From: Terriglobia bacterium
GTDB taxonomy: Bacteria > Acidobacteriota > Terriglobia > Terriglobales > Acidobacteriaceae
DNA: 29,514 nt
Assembly: GCA_041493865.1 (NCBI GenBank)
Contig: JBGPZS010000001.1
Coordinates: forward strand, 1-29,514
Direction: 5' to 3'
Shown: positions 1 through 5,213 of the stretch, piece by piece
Position numbering within the stretch: the first letter of the stretch is position 1
Layout: the number at the start of each line of letters is the position of its first letter
Made by a program: the position numbers and the translations under genes
The notes under the pieces: model-generated
The model's input: only the letters and a program-made list of their open reading frames with translations
Told to the model about the DNA's origin: nothing
The model's database searches: none

Positions 1-177
1 CTCAGGTCCTACGAAGTTGAATCATTTATTGCGGGCTGTACAGAACTACATGTGCTCGCAAGGCAACTGCAAGATCGGGACGGCTGGCATCCTCTATGCA
101 TTGATCCATTGGATTTGCTCGCCCGGCAGATTTCGAATTCGACTGCACTTTTACACAAGTCAGTCAGTTCTCTTTGA
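1..177 (+). CDS. Aspartate/glutamate racemase family protein, C-terminal fragment (runs off the left edge; absent from the ORF track)
   Basis: Frame 1 is open from base 1 to TGA at 175-177: LRSYEVESFIAGCTELHVLARQLQDRDGWHPLCIDPLDLLARQISNSTALLHKSVSSL. It has the (A/L)GCTE(L) second catalytic Cys motif and the downstream IDPLxxLA motif typical of these racemases. Confidence 0.7.
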   Translation, partial: LRSYEVESFIAGCTELHVLARQLQDRDGWHPLCIDPLDLLARQISNSTALLHKSVSSL

Positions 178-507
178 TATGACGATGCTGCAGGGCAGCG
201 ATTCTCAGCTATTAACAGCATTTCCTGAATTCTCACCCTGTGTTGAAAACGTTTCTGCTTCTAACTTCACTGAAGCAACGGCCAGCAAGTTACGGCTTTT
301 CAGGCGCCGAAGTGCTCTGGCCACCATGATCACAACTCCTCCTTTTACCTGGCGGTAACACCGGCTTACTCCCCTCTGTTAGGAATCTCAATTCTTCATC
401 GAACAGTTGGCGTTTCTATTTATCACTCCTAAGTCCCCCGCTGAAGACTCATTCTTGGAGTGAATCCGTCACGTTTGTATGTTGATTACTGCGTCATCCC
501 TCTTGAG

Positions 508-529
508 AAAAAAAGGGGGCTGATCCCCC
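508..529 (-). terminator. Rho-independent terminator-like hairpin on the minus strand
   Basis: Minus strand reads GGGGG-ATCAG-CCCCC-TTTTTTT: a 5-bp G:C stem, a 5-nt loop and a 7-U tail. Confidence 0.45.
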
Positions 530-900
530 ACAATCCCGCCCCCTGCACCCACTTGATAAATTTTGGTACCAGACACCGCTGGCAACTCCCCTCGAAGGGC
601 TTTGCGATCGGACTTGTTAGTGGAACCACCGTACAATAAATTACAATGAATTCGGCATTGTGCGCGTTGCTAGCATTCTAGGCACTGTGTTGTTTGATAC
701 GCTTGGATCCGCATCATTTAACTCCATCTTCCAGAGATCCAACCTGGGAATGGCAAACCGCACGCTCCTGACTTTTTCAGCGGCTTGACATTGACTTGCA
801 GCTCCTCTGATGCTGGCTCGCGCAGGTCTTGCTACTCTAGTACGGGCGGCGTTCAGCACAGCGCCCAACTCGATGACGAATCCAGAGGAACTAACTCCCC

Positions 901-1695
901 ATGATGACGAGTAGTCGCGCAGGCAATTCCGGCCCGAGTTGGTTTGAGCACCTGTCCCTGGCCAGCATACCGTCGCTCCGGTTGTTTTGCTTTCCATACG
1001 CAGGAGGAAGTTCGGAGATATACCGAAGTTGGCAGCGATGGTTCCCTGAGCAGATTGACATCTGTCTGGTTCATTTGCCGGGCCGCGGAAAGCGCATGAA
1101 GGAACAGGCATTTACCCGGCTCATAGCCCTGGTGAATGCGATTGCGGATCGCATGCATCGCGAAACGAATGTCCCCTATGCTCTATATGGACACAGCATG
1201 GGCGCCCTCATAAGCTTCGAACTGGGCCGGGAGCTTTTTCGCAGGCACGGCACAGGACCGAAGCACCTGTTCGTATCGGGCCATTGCGCTCCTCAGTGGC
1301 CGAGAAATGACCCGGCGACATTCAATCTTCCTCCTGACAAATTTGCCGCAGAACTGAAAAAGCTCAACGGCACTCCTAAGGAAATACTCGAAGAGCCTGA
1401 ATTGTTGGAACTGTTCATCCGCCCTCTTAGGGCAGATTTCGAAATTGTCGATACCTATGAGTACCATCCCGGAGAGCTGCTGTCATGTCCCATTACGGTA
1501 TACGGGGGACTCCGTGACGCAAGTGTTCCCGTAGAAAGTTGCCGTGCGTGGCAGGAACAAAGCTCTGCTGGGTGCAAGGTAAGGATGTTGAGCGGAGACC
1601 ACTTCTTCATTCGCGATCCGGAATTGGAGTTTATGAATGCGTTCCGAAACGACATATTAAGCGCTGTTCCCGCTTCACGCGCGCAGGAAGTTTGA
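901..1695 (+). CDS. Type II (editing) thioesterase of NRPS/PKS clusters (GrsT/RifR-like)
   Basis: RLFCFPYAGG, VHLPGRGKR, nucleophile motif YGHSMG, LRADF (acid) and GDHFF (His), forming the standard TEII triad. Confidence 0.95.
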   Translation: MMTSSRAGNSGPSWFEHLSLASIPSLRLFCFPYAGGSSEIYRSWQRWFPEQIDICLVHLPGRGKRMKEQAFTRLIALVNAIADRMHRETNVPYALYGHSMGALISFELGRELFRRHGTGPKHLFVSGHCAPQWPRNDPATFNLPPDKFAAELKKLNGTPKEILEEPELLELFIRPLRADFEIVDTYEYHPGELLSCPITVYGGLRDASVPVESCRAWQEQSSAGCKVRMLSGDHFFIRDPELEFMNAFRNDILSAVPASRAQEV

Positions 1696-2079
1696 CCATT
1701 GGTTTGGCACCCACCATGCCGAGGCCACTTTCCGCAGGCACCGTTTCACATCTGGCAGATCGACGTTGCCATGCCTTTAAACCGGACCCAAATTTGCCGC
1801 AGGTTTTTTTCTTATGGATGAAAATGGGTGTGCCGATCGTTTCTGTTTTGACGGGGATAGGGCCGTTTCATCACTGCTCGCGTGGCCATGAGGACCATTC
1901 TCGTCCAATACCTGAATATTGTGCCGGTAGAAGTTACCTTCTCCTATGAGGCAAAAGACGCCCCAGGGTCTGTGCTATTCTTGCAGTTCAGGCGCATGCC
2001 TGGAGTAAAATAACCCTTCTCGGAAGATTCAAATCGTTCCGACACGCGTTACCATAACGTCTTTTTCCAGGGAGTTAGT

Positions 2080-4017
2080 ATGTCGACCGCGCCAATTGTC
2101 GAATCATTTCAATTTCAGGCTGAAACTGCACAGCTTCTTAACTTGATGATCCATTCTCTCTATACCCAAAGAGAGATATTTCTGCGGGAGCTGATCTCGA
2201 ATGCGTCGGATGCGTTGGACAGACTGCGATTTGAAGCCTTGACCAATCCCGGACTGGTCAAAGACGGGCACAACTATGAGATTCGCCTGAAGCCGGACGC
2301 GGCAGCGCGGACCTTGACCATCAGCGATACGGGGATCGGTATGAGCCGCCAGGAGCTTATGGAACATATCGGGACGATTGCCCGGTCCGGAACACGGGAA
2401 CTGAGCAAACGAATGAAAGAATCTCAGACCGCACCAGCCTTTGGCGACTTAATTGGACAATTCGGAGTTGGTTTTTATTCCGCATTCATGGTGGCGGAAA
2501 AGGTAACCATCCTGACCCGCCGTGCGGGTGAGCCGGGCGCCAGCCAGTGGGAATCCACCGGAGATGGCACCTATACGCTCATGGATGCGCAAAAGGCAAG
2601 TTACGGAACTGACATCATTCTCCATCTCAAGGAAGTTGATGCTGAAAAAGGCATTGAAGACTATACCGATCGCTGGAAACTCTCCATGATTGTCCACAGG
2701 TATTCTGATTTCATTGCCTATCCCATCATCTATGAAGGTCCGCCGCAGGAACCAGGCGAGACAGAGGGAGAAGCCAAAGAAATCAAGATCGAAACCAAGA
2801 CGTTGAACTCAATGAAGCCGATCTGGACGCGCAGCCGGTCGGAGGTCAGCGAAAGCGATTACAACGACTTCTATAAACACCTTTCCAATGACTGGACAAA
2901 TCCGCTTAAAGTATTGTCACTCAAAGCCGAGGGGACTGTGGAATATGAAGCGCTGCTGTTCATCCCTTCGCAAGCTCCTTATGATCTTTTTTACCATGGT
3001 AGCGAAAGCGGCCTCAGGCTATACGCAAAGCGGGTGATGGTCATGGAAAAATGTGAGGACTTGCTGCCCAGGCATCTTCGCTTCATCAAGGGAGTGGTGG
3101 ACTCCAGCGACTTGCCGCTCAATATTTCCCGTCAGCGACTGCAGCAGGACCGGCATATAACCCAGATCCGTAAATGGCTGACCCGTAAAATACTGGATTC
3201 GCTCACCGAAATGCGGGAGCAGGAGGCGGAGAAATACCAGAAGTTCTGGGGTGATTTCGGGAGGGCGTTGAAGGAAGGTGTCAGCTCTGATTATGAAAAT
3301 AAAGAAAAGCTGCTTCCGCTGCTGTTGTTCGAATCCTCGCATGATCCTAAGGAGCTGACTGCTCTCAAGGCCTATATGGAAAGAATGAAGCCGGAGCAAA
3401 CCGAGATCCTGTATCTGACCGGCGAATCGCGCAAGGTCATCGAAAACTCTCCCCACCTTGAGGCGTCGAAACAGAAAGGGTATGAGGTGCTCTATCTCAG
3501 CGATCCGGTGGATGAATTGCTGGTCCAGCATCTCCACGAGTTTGAAGGAAAACGTCTGAAATCCTTAACCAAGGGCCAAGTCCACCTGGGAACGGAAGAA
3601 GAGAAAAAACAGCTCGAAGAGCAGGTCAAGAAGAAAGAAGAGGAATTCGTAAACTTCCTCAAGGCCTGCCAGAAAAAAATGGATGAATACGTGAAGCAGA
3701 TCCGGCTGTCAACGCGTCTGGTCGATTCGCCTGCCTGCTTGGTCACGGAGGAGCATGAGTACAGCCCGCATCTGGAGCGGCTGCTGCAAAAAGGCAAGGG
3801 CAGCGGTCCGAAACAGCGACGCATCATGGAACTAAATTCTGGCCATCCCATCATCGCGCGTATGTACGATCGCTACAATGCGAATAGTGAGGATCCGGCT
3901 GTCGTTGACTCGATTGAACTCCTGTTCGAACTGGCGCTGATTGCCGAGGGCTCCGAGATTGTTGATCCCGTGCGGCTGAATCAACTCACTCTGGGGCTAT
4001 TGCAGAAGACGTTATAG
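2080..4017 (+). CDS. htpG: Molecular chaperone HtpG (Hsp90), full length, 645 aa
   Basis: FQFQAETAQLLNLMIHSLY, IFLRELISNASDALD, SDTGIGM, GTIARSGT, IGQFGVGFYSAF, FIKGVVDSSDLPLNISR. SD-like GGGAG upstream. Confidence 0.97.
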   Translation: MSTAPIVESFQFQAETAQLLNLMIHSLYTQREIFLRELISNASDALDRLRFEALTNPGLVKDGHNYEIRLKPDAAARTLTISDTGIGMSRQELMEHIGTIARSGTRELSKRMKESQTAPAFGDLIGQFGVGFYSAFMVAEKVTILTRRAGEPGASQWESTGDGTYTLMDAQKASYGTDIILHLKEVDAEKGIEDYTDRWKLSMIVHRYSDFIAYPIIYEGPPQEPGETEGEAKEIKIETKTLNSMKPIWTRSRSEVSESDYNDFYKHLSNDWTNPLKVLSLKAEGTVEYEALLFIPSQAPYDLFYHGSESGLRLYAKRVMVMEKCEDLLPRHLRFIKGVVDSSDLPLNISRQRLQQDRHITQIRKWLTRKILDSLTEMREQEAEKYQKFWGDFGRALKEGVSSDYENKEKLLPLLLFESSHDPKELTALKAYMERMKPEQTEILYLTGESRKVIENSPHLEASKQKGYEVLYLSDPVDELLVQHLHEFEGKRLKSLTKGQVHLGTEEEKKQLEEQVKKKEEEFVNFLKACQKKMDEYVKQIRLSTRLVDSPACLVTEEHEYSPHLERLLQKGKGSGPKQRRIMELNSGHPIIARMYDRYNANSEDPAVVDSIELLFELALIAEGSEIVDPVRLNQLTLGLLQKTL

Positions 4018-4133
4018 AATTTCTGGCTATGCTCGGCAGCGATAGGCAATTTCACCGTGAGGCAAAAAAAACCATTTGTAACGCAACGTAGTGGATCGGC
4101 GGCCGAAAATTAAACTCTCTTGGAGAAGCTGAT

Positions 4134-4352
4134 ATGACGAACGATAGCGAGGATAAGACAATTTACAAAGTCGTGCTAAATCATGAGGAACAATACTCAA
4201 TTTGGCCTGCGCACCGGGAGAATGCATTGGGATGGAGAGACGCAGGGAAGAGCGGCACAAAAGAAGAATGCTTGGCTTACATCAAAGAAGTCTGGACGGA
4301 CATGCGGCCGCTGAGCCTGAGAAAAAAAATGCAGGAGCAGGGCCTGAGCTGA
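4134..4352 (+). CDS. mbtH: MbtH-like protein (adenylation-domain activator/chaperone)
   Basis: [39 protein letters not shown], with all three conserved Trp. GGAG SD upstream. Confidence 0.97.
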
Positions 4353-4693
4353 ATTAGTTGACGATCACAAGGCAGCCGTCGACACCTCACATACAATTGA
4401 GCCCATCCATGCATGAAATGCAAGCGTGAGGCACTGTCACAGGTGGTAGGAGAGTCCCGCGCCGGATGTCTCTGGTCATCCGTCACAATGCCCGCTGGAA
4501 TCCCTTGATTCGCGTTGCGCATTTCGTCTGTCCCACTGTTCCGGAAATCATCGAGGTTTGGGCTCCACCATCTCCCGCAAAATCTCATATTGATCCATGA
4601 TCCGGGGCCGGTTTTCCCTATGGTCATATGTACTGTGTCCAGTGTTCCTGCATCCAATTTGTTATTCTAAATTTAGAGTTTCTGGAGGTTTTG

Positions 4694-5044
4694 GTGCTTA
4701 ACAAAGCGGGTAAAATGGCGCTGGCAATCACTCTGATGGCGGGAATGCTGTTTCTCGCGGGATGCCCCACGCAAACCAGCGTTGCCGATGTCAGTAAAGA
4801 TCCCGGCCGTTTTGCCGGCAAAGATGTAAGCATTCACGGGACCGTGTCTGACTCGTTTGGCGCGCTCGGCAACGGCGTCTTCCAGATTGATGACGGCACC
4901 GGACGCATGTGGGTTTACAGCCAGAATTTTGGTGTGCCGGGCAATGGCAACAAGGTCGCAGTCACCGGTCGCATTGAGCAGGGCTTTGCTTTTGGCGGTC
5001 GCACCTTCGGTGTAATTCTGCGCCAGACAGAAGCCCGGCATTGA
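4694..5044 (+). CDS. Small lipoprotein with a predicted OB-fold
   Basis: GTG start at 4694 after GGAGG. Hydrophobic signal ends in the lipobox LAGC. The mature part (VSIHGTVSDSF..FQIDDGTGRMWV..VAVTGRI) matches the OB-fold pattern 'F.l.DgTG.i.V'. Confidence 0.7.
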   Translation: MLNKAGKMALAITLMAGMLFLAGCPTQTSVADVSKDPGRFAGKDVSIHGTVSDSFGALGNGVFQIDDGTGRMWVYSQNFGVPGNGNKVAVTGRIEQGFAFGGRTFGVILRQTEARH

Positions 5045-5213
5045 CGAACTGAGTTTCTGGCGTGGCTGCTGCGGCTGATCTATTGCGCCGGCCGTCTGCG
5101 GCCTGCTGCGTGGTCCGGCGGCCGAGCTTTTCGCCAGCGCGTTGTCTGCTCTGTTTGCCGAAGCTTGGTTCTTTGCGAACGCTGCAACTTGCTGTAAGCT
5201 ACTTCATTCCCGC

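What the first reader, a model, noticed from the sequence alone, without database searches (positions are those of the whole stretch)
901..4352. Hsp90 (HtpG) embedded in an NRPS quality-control cassette: TEII - htpG - MbtH
Seen: a full-length htpG lies on the same strand between a type II thioesterase and an MbtH-like gene, downstream of a racemase, and I see no CIRCE element in front of it. Established: TEII edits mis-primed carrier domains and MbtH proteins fold and activate A-domains. Housekeeping HtpG, encoded outside the cluster, is needed for colibactin, yersiniabactin, albicidin and arthrofactin megasynthase function. Inference: this cluster may carry its own dedicated Hsp90 as a third folding/editing module for a large NRPS lying left of the window. 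A cluster-encoded megasynthase chaperone cassette is not a standard BGC component and is the best candidate for an undescribed system here.
Basis: partly seen in the sequence, partly recalled or inferred. Interest (0 to 1): 0.8.

Follow-up and report, generated by a model that had tools for sequence, protein, structure and literature searches.

The report
Hsp90 gene clustered with NRPS helpers
In a soil Acidobacteria genus rich in peptide-antibiotic synthetases (Ca. Angelobacter), the genome's only Hsp90 gene (htpG) repeatedly sits beside the small helper genes of those synthetases, which is genomic support, not proof, that bacterial Hsp90 serves these giant enzymes.

Summary
A type II thioesterase (901-1695), a full-length htpG (2080-4017) and an mbtH gene (4134-4352) lie on one strand, after the tail of an Asp/Glu-racemase gene (1-174).

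- This is not a second, cluster-dedicated Hsp90. htpG is single-copy in this MAG and in all 55 htpG-bearing genomes of the genus (79 searched).
- In relatives no NRPS megasynthase gene lies within 8 kb of htpG.
- The linkage recurs. In 39 species loci with adequate flanks, mbtH, TEII or a PPTase lies within 300 bp of htpG in 17 and within 3 kb in 21, in several gene orders.
- No such adjacency was found in 8 other acidobacterial or 33 proteobacterial genomes that have both genes.
- Within the genus, all 25 near-complete genomes with at least 16 condensation domains have htpG, against 14 of 30 with fewer. Too few phylogenetically independent contrasts exist to prove this.

Best reading: a stand-alone NRPS helper neighbourhood that has recruited the sole htpG.

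The parts
1..174 (+). 3' end (58 codons) of an Asp/Glu-racemase family gene, cut by the contig start; carries the GCTE motif
   Evidence: Weak PF01177 match to the C-terminus (E 0.11). Homologues in the genus at 36-58% identity are 241-311 aa PF01177 proteins (E 1e-18 to 1e-22). They lie directly beside NRPS adenylation or condensation genes or a TauD hydroxylase.
901..1695 (+). Stand-alone type II thioesterase (264 aa) with GHSMG and GDHF motifs
   Evidence: PF00975 at E 1.5e-40. Orthologues at 57-69% identity sit just upstream of PPTase-htpG or htpG in L030, L032, L036, L038, L040, L052 and L055.
1726..1974 (+). Pseudogene remnant of an Sfp/HetI-type PPTase. Only about residues 17-92 remain, with two frameshifts. 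About 520 bp encoding the catalytic ACPS domain are deleted.
   Evidence: NF042922 HetI at E 4.8e-12, and PF22624 N-domain only. Collinear at DNA level with the intact TEII-PPTase of L040 up to window 1957; homology resumes at htpG. The same sequence, without gaps, is present in contigs of four other sequencing runs.
1981..2011 (+). Promoter-like element of htpG: TTGCAG (1981-1986), 19 nt, TAAAAT (2006-2011), 74 nt before the start codon
   Evidence: A TAAAAT box 64-95 nt upstream of htpG is found in about 33 of 47 related loci, whatever gene lies upstream. It often has TTGNCN 19 nt before it. This is a consensus resemblance only, not tested. The sigma-70 scan (spacer 16-18) did not list it.
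2080..4017 (+). htpG, full-length bacterial Hsp90 (645 aa); the only copy found in the genome
   Evidence: NF003555 at 723 bits, PF00183 at E 2.9e-134. Aligns to E. coli HtpG 2IOP residues 6-612 with the catalytic Glu, the ELISNASDA and GxxGxG ATP-site motifs and the middle-domain Arg conserved. Single copy.
4134..4352 (+). mbtH-like gene (72 aa), 116 bp after htpG; member of the genus-wide 'core' MbtH orthologue group
   Evidence: PF03621 at E 7.7e-22. It is 85-96% identical to the MbtHs that lie 27-103 bp after htpG in other species, and 38-79% identical to the other MbtH copies of the same genomes, which were not checked for BGC context. No terminator-like site is predicted between htpG and mbtH on the + strand.
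4628..5044 (+). Small ORF (138 aa) of unknown function that travels with the helper genes in some relatives
   Evidence: No Pfam family above cut-off; only weak OB-fold and DUF5818 hints. Homologues at 67-78% identity lie divergently next to the PPTase in L026 and L037, and at 50% in L020.

Best explanation
The window holds a stand-alone 'NRPS helper' neighbourhood of the BGC-rich soil genus Ca. Angelobacter. It consists of TEII, a PPTase (here decayed), the genome's only htpG with its own promoter-like element, and the genus's core mbtH, which is probably co-transcribed with htpG.

Proposed mechanism (inferred):
- The genes supply, in trans to synthetases encoded elsewhere, the maturation functions of NRPS megasynthases.
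- The PPTase primes carrier domains.
- TEII clears mis-primed carriers.
- MbtH stabilises and activates adenylation domains.
- HtpG, probably with DnaK, folds the megasynthases and protects them from proteolysis, as shown experimentally in E. coli and Pseudomonas.

Shown here: gene identities, single copy of htpG, recurrent linkage in many species, and the htpG-NRPS load association. Inferred: co-transcription, and any dependence of Angelobacter NRPSs on HtpG.
For: Gene identities.

Recurrent linkage:
- In 39 species loci with adequate flanks, a helper gene lies within 300 bp of htpG in 17, within 3 kb in 21 and within 8 kb in 23.
- At least five arrangements occur: htpG>mbtH, htpG><mbtH, TEII>PPTase>htpG, mbtH>TEII>PPTase>htpG, and PPTase>htpG.
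- These states are intermixed on the HtpG tree. The htpG>mbtH state needs 4-7 changes and the TEII/PPTase>htpG state 4-10.
- Genus scan: the two genes are adjacent (within 300 bp) in 15 of 55 htpG-bearing genomes, 13 on the same strand and 2 convergent. Two more have mbtH within about 3 kb.
- TEII and PPTase overlap by 4-16 bp in L030 and L040; the PPTase-htpG gap is about 70-140 bp.

Trans action: G103 has 21 condensation-domain matches on other contigs, and its single mbtH is the one beside htpG.

Association with NRPS load:
- Among genomes at least 90% complete, 25 of 25 with 16 or more C domains have htpG, against 14 of 30 with fewer (Fisher 8e-6).
- The association holds inside the 4.4-5.8 Mb size band (p 0.0014).

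Controls: 0 of 8 other acidobacterial and 0 of 33 proteobacterial genomes with both genes have them adjacent; the nearest pair is 75 kb apart. None of 31 non-acidobacterial htpG loci has a helper gene nearby.

Literature: NRPS megasynthases are HtpG clients (bioRxiv 10.1101/2025.07.01.662645). HtpG is needed for albicidin and arthrofactin (PMC4408752, PMC3039948). The genus is known to be BGC-rich (PMC9723581).
Against: - The linkage was seen only in one genus, so shared descent explains part of it.
- Only 5 well-supported independent contrasts for htpG presence exist on the RpoB tree (2.8 in the same direction, 0 opposite; p at least 0.125), so the htpG-NRPS association is not phylogenetically proven.
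- Some htpG-bearing genomes have no condensation domains (G138 and G564). G583 has 14 C domains without htpG.
- 20 of 28 other MbtH-bearing Acidobacteria lack htpG altogether.
- The core MbtH orthologue persists in complete genomes with neither NRPS C domains nor htpG (G070, G547, G592).
- In this window the PPTase is dead, and no Sfp-type PPTase was found elsewhere in the MAG, which is incomplete.
- No RNA data were available.
Confidence: 0.55

Rival explanations
1. Synteny by descent without a functional link. htpG is an ordinary general stress chaperone. An ancestor of the genus happened to carry it beside mbtH, TEII and PPTase, and close spacing has simply preserved pieces of that neighbourhood.
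For: The adjacency is confined to one genus in everything searched. htpG has its own conserved promoter-like element, independent of the upstream gene. Some genomes have htpG but no NRPS (G138, G564). The independent-contrast test is not significant.
Against: The gene order has been reshuffled several times, with mbtH upstream, downstream or inverted and TEII and PPTase present or absent, yet linkage to some helper gene is kept in 54% of loci while outer flanks differ completely. htpG has been lost or gained at least 5-11 times in the genus, and all heavy NRPS carriers kept it.
Confidence: 0.3
2. One reading: the cassette is part of one particular NRPS gene cluster lying left of the window, and carries a dedicated, additional Hsp90 for that megasynthase.
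For: The racemase tail at 1-174 belongs to a family whose members in the genus sit directly beside NRPS genes. Three independent assemblies break about 830-900 bp left of TEII (the window, L193 and L194), as assemblies often do at repeats such as NRPS modules. NRPS fragments exist on short contigs of the same MAG.
Against: Only one htpG is found here, and htpG is single-copy in all 55 htpG-bearing genomes of the genus. Orthologous cassettes in relatives sit among housekeeping genes such as enolase, prolyl oligopeptidase and amidohydrolases, with no megasynthase within 8 kb. In G103 the NRPS genes are on other contigs. The 25 kb to the right of the cassette holds no NRPS or PKS gene.
Confidence: 0.07

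Closest known systems
Housekeeping HtpG required in trans for NRPS/PKS-NRPS products (colibactin, yersiniabactin, pyoverdine, albicidin, arthrofactin)
   Same: It is a single-copy, canonical bacterial Hsp90. The proposed role is folding or stabilising NRPS megasynthases encoded elsewhere in the genome (10.1101/2025.07.01.662645; PMC4408752; PMC3039948).
   Different: In those organisms htpG lies apart from the NRPS accessory genes; in X. albilineans the PPTase and htpG are required in addition to the alb cluster. Here htpG is physically clustered with mbtH, TEII and PPTase in many species. htpG is also an accessory gene in this genus, present in 55 of 79 genomes. No experiment exists for this lineage.
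NRPS accessory gene sets (MbtH-like protein, type II thioesterase, Sfp-type PPTase) inside biosynthetic gene clusters
   Same: The same three helper families are present, with tight spacing and overlapping stop/start codons between TEII and PPTase in relatives.
   Different: The set stands alone, away from megasynthase genes in relatives, and includes an Hsp90. I found no such component described in the papers searched. In this window the PPTase member is a pseudogene.
Trans-acting or orphan MbtH-like proteins that serve several NRPS clusters (cross-complementation; from my own knowledge, not checked in a paper here)
   Same: One conserved 'core' MbtH orthologue per genome. In G103 and G532 it is the only MbtH, despite about 17-22 condensation domains.
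   Different: Here that orthologue is preferentially placed directly after htpG. It also persists in genomes without any condensation domain.

Membership tests
Bacterial Hsp90 (HtpG) | Full three-domain architecture: GHKL ATPase N-domain, middle domain and C-terminal dimerisation domain, scoring above the equivalog cut-off | tested here: met
   NF003555 at 723 bits against a cut-off of 371, covering profile positions 2-608 of 614. Aligns to 2IOP residues 6-612.
Bacterial Hsp90 (HtpG) | Catalytic Glu of the N-domain, the ATP-binding motifs (ELISNASDA, GxxGxG) and the middle-domain catalytic Arg | tested here: met
   All are conserved in the residue-by-residue alignment to E. coli HtpG: fqaE, ELISNASDA, GQFGVGFYS and NISRQ.
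MbtH-like protein (PF03621) | About 70-aa protein with the invariant Trp signature (SxWP ... GW ... WTDMRP) | tested here: met
   PF03621 at 76.9 bits against a cut-off of 27. The sequence reads ...[14 protein letters not shown]...EVWTDMRP....
Type II thioesterase | Stand-alone protein of about 250 aa in the PF00975 family with a GxSxG nucleophile and a C-terminal GxH motif | tested here: met
   PF00975 at 140 bits. GHSMG and GDHF were read in the translation of 901-1695. Editing activity itself is not testable here.
Sfp-type 4'-phosphopantetheinyl transferase | Both halves present: the AASDHPPT_N domain plus the catalytic ACPS domain in one open frame | tested here: not met
   Only the N-terminal third survives, in three frame pieces. 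The ACPS domain is deleted. The same state is seen in four other runs. It is therefore filed as a pseudogene.
Cluster-situated, dedicated (second) chaperone of one BGC | A housekeeping paralogue exists elsewhere in the same genome | tested here: not met
   One PF00183 match in G000, and one per genome in the 54 other htpG-bearing genomes of the genus. G000 is only 68.6% complete.
Cluster-situated, dedicated (second) chaperone of one BGC | Megasynthase genes lie within the same cluster | tested here: inconclusive
   In the window the contig ends 900 bp left of TEII, and the racemase tail hints at a BGC edge. In 49 related loci only adenylation-domain-sized hits occur within 8 kb, and only in 5 loci.

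The most novel reading that the evidence does not exclude
In Ca. Angelobacter, bacterial Hsp90 has been recruited as a standing member of the NRPS maturation toolkit. The MbtH-like protein encoded directly after htpG would work with it physically, as an adaptor or co-chaperone that hands adenylation domains to HtpG. That would be the first client-specific partner of a bacterial Hsp90, for which no co-chaperone is known (10.1101/2025.07.01.662645).
Probability: 0.12. Interest if true: 0.85.

Novelty: new variant of a known kind. Interest (0 to 1): 0.55.

Why it matters
Experiments in a few proteobacteria show that HtpG is needed for NRPS products and that the megasynthases are its clients. There has been no comparative-genomic signal for this, and no bacterial Hsp90 partner is known.

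A genus in which htpG is an accessory gene provides that signal. There it is kept by every heavy NRPS carrier searched and is repeatedly placed beside mbtH, TEII and PPTase. This gives a concrete, testable pairing (HtpG with MbtH and adenylation domains).

It also has a practical side. Heterologous expression of the many uncharacterised Angelobacter BGCs may need this htpG-mbtH pair, and genome-mining tools might count htpG as a helper gene in this lineage.

Tried and rejected
- Leftward extension. The window is the whole contig C377. No other contig of the MAG overlaps its first 180 bases. The racemase N-terminus is not in the MAG. An exact 40-mer search of JGI metagenome contigs found nothing. 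Other assemblies carrying the same TEII (L193, L194) start at nearly the same place. Logan contigs of runs X3 and X4 reach about 1.38 kb further left, but their letters cannot be read with these tools.
- RNA evidence for co-transcription. No RNA run was listed.
- Sigma-70 and terminator scan of 300-5200. Nothing above the shuffled expectation.
- CIRCE. None found; this says little, because htpG is not usually HrcA-controlled (own knowledge).
- Horizontal transfer inferred from the low GC of 1-5000. Rejected as weak, because htpG is a little below its flanks in GC in four of five relatives checked.
- Phylogenetically independent contrasts. Too few to reach significance. Two rows of the RpoB tree (G580, G518) were clearly not RpoB and should be ignored.
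- HtpG origin. The genus's HtpG sits inside the main acidobacterial clade, while other genera of its own family carry a very divergent type at 39-40% identity. I could not decide which lineage replaced which.
Full report
**What is in the window**

The window is the complete contig C377 of a MAG (4.06 Mb, 607 contigs, 68.6% complete), so it cannot be extended.
- TEII at 901-1695 matches PF00975 at E 1.5e-40.
- htpG at 2080-4017 scores 723 bits against the NCBIfam HtpG equivalog (cut-off 371) and matches PF00183 at E 2.9e-134.
- mbtH at 4134-4352 matches PF03621 at E 7.7e-22.

HtpG aligns from end to end with E. coli HtpG (2IOP). The catalytic Glu, the ATP-site motifs and the middle-domain Arg are conserved. 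No CIRCE element occurs in the window, even with three mismatches allowed.

The 'racemase' is a 58-codon tail at 1-174. On its own it matches PF01177 only weakly (E 0.11). Its homologues in the genus (36-58% identity) are complete Asp/Glu racemases (E 1e-18 to 1e-22). They sit directly beside NRPS adenylation or condensation genes or a TauD hydroxylase.

The 385-bp 'junction' between TEII and htpG is not empty. Positions 1726-1974 are the N-terminal third of a HetI/Sfp-type PPTase, broken by two frameshifts (NF042922, E 4.8e-12).

DNA comparison with relatives that have an intact TEII-PPTase-htpG row shows collinearity up to window position 1957. Homology resumes at htpG. About 520 bp that encode the catalytic ACPS domain are therefore deleted.

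Contigs from four other public runs carry the same sequence across 852-4010 without gaps, so this is not an assembly error. The only other ACPS match in the MAG is an AcpS-sized ORF.

**Organism**

The nearest HtpGs (up to 85% identity) come from MAGs labelled Candidatus Angelobacter, Sulfotelmatobacter, Terriglobia or Acidobacteriaceae. Ca. Angelobacter is a soil genus already described as enriched in biosynthetic gene clusters. That paper does not mention HtpG, MbtH, thioesterases or PPTases (PMC9723581).

**Is it a second, dedicated Hsp90? No**

- One htpG is found in this MAG.
- One per genome is found in the 50 high-quality htpG-bearing genomes of the order sample.
- One per genome is found in all 55 htpG-bearing genomes among the 79 species of the genus.

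On an HtpG tree the genus forms one clade (support 100). That clade is nested among HtpGs of other acidobacterial families, which are 46-60% identical (six of the eight branch beside the genus's clade; one groups with the Pseudomonadota). Curiously, the other genera of its own family carry a very different HtpG at 39-40% identity on a long branch.

**Is it embedded in an NRPS cluster? Not in relatives; unknown here**

With NRPS probes from this MAG's own NRPS contigs, only adenylation-domain-sized hits appear within 8 kb of htpG, and in only 5 of 49 related loci.

Flanking genes of the orthologous cassettes are housekeeping: enolase, prolyl oligopeptidase, CN-hydrolase and amidohydrolases.

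In the 98%-complete relative G103 the htpG-mbtH pair is on contig 7. All 21 condensation-domain matches lie on contigs 14, 19 and 21.

In the window, the 25 kb to the right holds BlaI/BlaR1, methyltransferases, GH47, acyl-CoA dehydrogenase and similar genes. To the left, the racemase tail hints at a BGC edge. So does the fact that three assemblies (the window, L193 and L194) break about 830-900 bp left of TEII. That hint could not be verified.

**The linkage recurs**

tblastn with the window's MbtH and TEII and a full PPTase, run against 49 species loci, gave the following counts for the 39 loci with adequate flanks.

| Distance from htpG | Loci with a helper gene |
|---|---|
| within 300 bp | 17 of 39 |
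| within 3 kb | 21 of 39 |
| within 8 kb | 23 of 39 |

The arrangements differ between species.
- htpG then mbtH, 27-103 bp apart, in 11 loci.
- htpG with an inverted mbtH, in 2 loci.
- TEII-PPTase-htpG, in 3 loci.
- mbtH-TEII-PPTase-htpG in L032, and mbtH-TEII upstream of htpG in L055, where no PPTase was detected.
- TEII-htpG, in 2 loci.
- PPTase-htpG, in 5 loci.

In L030 and L040, TEII and PPTase overlap by 4-16 bp. The window combines the upstream row and the downstream mbtH. One close relative (P0002) has PPTase-htpG-mbtH.

On the HtpG tree these states are intermixed. The neighbourhood has therefore been reshuffled several times without losing contact with helper genes.

The whole-genome scan of the genus agrees. 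mbtH lies within 300 bp of htpG in 15 of 55 htpG-bearing genomes, and within about 3 kb in two more.

The htpG-linked MbtHs form one orthologue group at 85-96% identity. They are distinct from the other MbtH copies of the same genomes, which are 38-79% identical.

**Controls**

- In the order sample outside the genus, MbtH is rare (2 genomes), and in both it is unlinked to htpG.
- In a phylum sample, 8 further genomes have both genes and none has them adjacent.
- In 401 Pseudomonadota, 33 genomes have both genes. The closest pair is 75 kb apart.
- None of 31 non-acidobacterial htpG loci has a helper gene nearby.

**htpG tracks NRPS load**

htpG is an accessory gene in the genus, present in 55 of 79 genomes. 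Among genomes at least 90% complete, all 25 with 16 or more condensation domains have htpG, against 14 of 30 with fewer (Fisher 8e-6; Mann-Whitney 7e-6). The association holds within the 4.4-5.8 Mb size band (p 0.0014).

On an RpoB tree, htpG presence changes 5-11 times. The well-supported independent contrasts number only 5, with 2.8 in the same direction and 0 opposite. That cannot reach significance. I therefore treat this association as suggestive, not proven.

**Regulation**

A TAAAAT box lies 64-95 nt upstream of htpG in about 33 of 47 loci, whatever gene lies upstream. It often has TTGNCN 19 nt before it. In the window the two elements are at 1981-1986 and 2006-2011.

So htpG, probably together with mbtH, looks like its own transcription unit, possibly with read-through from TEII-PPTase. 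The deletion that killed the PPTase spared this element. None of this has been tested with RNA.

**Interpretation**

Best reading (0.55): this is a stand-alone NRPS helper neighbourhood that has recruited the genome's sole htpG. It acts in trans on synthetases encoded elsewhere. This is in line with experiments showing that NRPS megasynthases are HtpG clients (10.1101/2025.07.01.662645) and that HtpG is needed for albicidin and arthrofactin (PMC4408752, PMC3039948).

Main rival (0.30): inherited synteny without function. Points in its favour:
- the restriction to one genus;
- htpG-bearing genomes without NRPS (G138, G564);
- 20 of 28 other MbtH-bearing Acidobacteria lacking htpG;
- the core MbtH persisting in genomes with neither NRPS nor htpG (G070, G547, G592).

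**Novelty**

I found no paper that places htpG in one locus with mbtH, TEII or PPTase. The scan itself had already noted an mbtH 30 nt after htpG in another genome (e1-3973083). I found the same arrangement in L064 and L008.

This is a new variant of known things: the known helper genes and the known HtpG-NRPS dependence, now physically linked in one lineage. It is not a new kind of system.

Noticed in passing
window:5142-7256: Two adjacent ORFs resemble the alpha and beta subunits of a split sulfopyruvate/phosphonopyruvate decarboxylase (TIGR03845 and TIGR03846, both below their cut-offs). A cyclase / kynurenine-formamidase-like gene follows. No pepM was seen nearby.
   Followed up: no
window:7446-10949 (- strand): A BlaI-type repressor (Penicillinase_R, 129 aa) followed by a very long BlaR1/M56 sensor-protease (1036 aa).
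   Followed up: no
window:18729-20873: A 714-aa protein with two Clp_N repeats and an AAA lid, but only weak AAA-core matches. It may be an atypical Clp-type ATPase.
   Followed up: no
window:1-5000: GC content is 50-53% here, against 54-64% in the rest of the contig. htpG is also slightly GC-poorer than its flanks in four of five relatives checked, so this is weak evidence for transfer.
   Followed up: partly
L096-L105 (HtpG of other genera of the same family): Other genera of the window's own family carry an HtpG only 39-40% identical to this one, on a long separate branch. More distant acidobacterial families have HtpGs at 46-60% identity. Two HtpG lineages therefore exist within one family, and which one replaced the other is unresolved.
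   Followed up: partly
G070:C31:22552-22704 (L013), G547:C176, G592:C6: The 'core' MbtH orthologue (80-84% identical to the window's) persists in 98-100% complete genomes that have no condensation domain and no htpG. An MbtH without an NRPS partner is unexplained; it may serve stand-alone adenylating enzymes.
   Followed up: partly
L041 (JBLMYN010000051.1): A 6.4-kb contig binned in an 'Actinomycetota' MAG carries an Angelobacter-type htpG-mbtH pair (80% and 92% identity). It is probably a mis-binned contig.
   Followed up: no
window:193, 263, 367: Contigs of the other sequencing runs laid on the window differ from it by single-base indels at these three non-coding positions: all four runs at 263 and 367, and three at 193 (no X4 contig covers that position). 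These are strain differences or small errors at the 5' end of this contig.
   Followed up: partly
window:513-529 (- strand): A GC-rich hairpin followed by a T-run (terminator-like) on the minus strand, in the non-coding gap between the racemase tail and TEII. No convincing minus-strand gene ends there.
   Followed up: no
G103:C7:109926-110693: In G103 the TEII orthologue (53% identity) lies 100 kb from htpG-mbtH on the same contig, with no condensation domain on that contig. Its neighbours were not examined.
   Followed up: no
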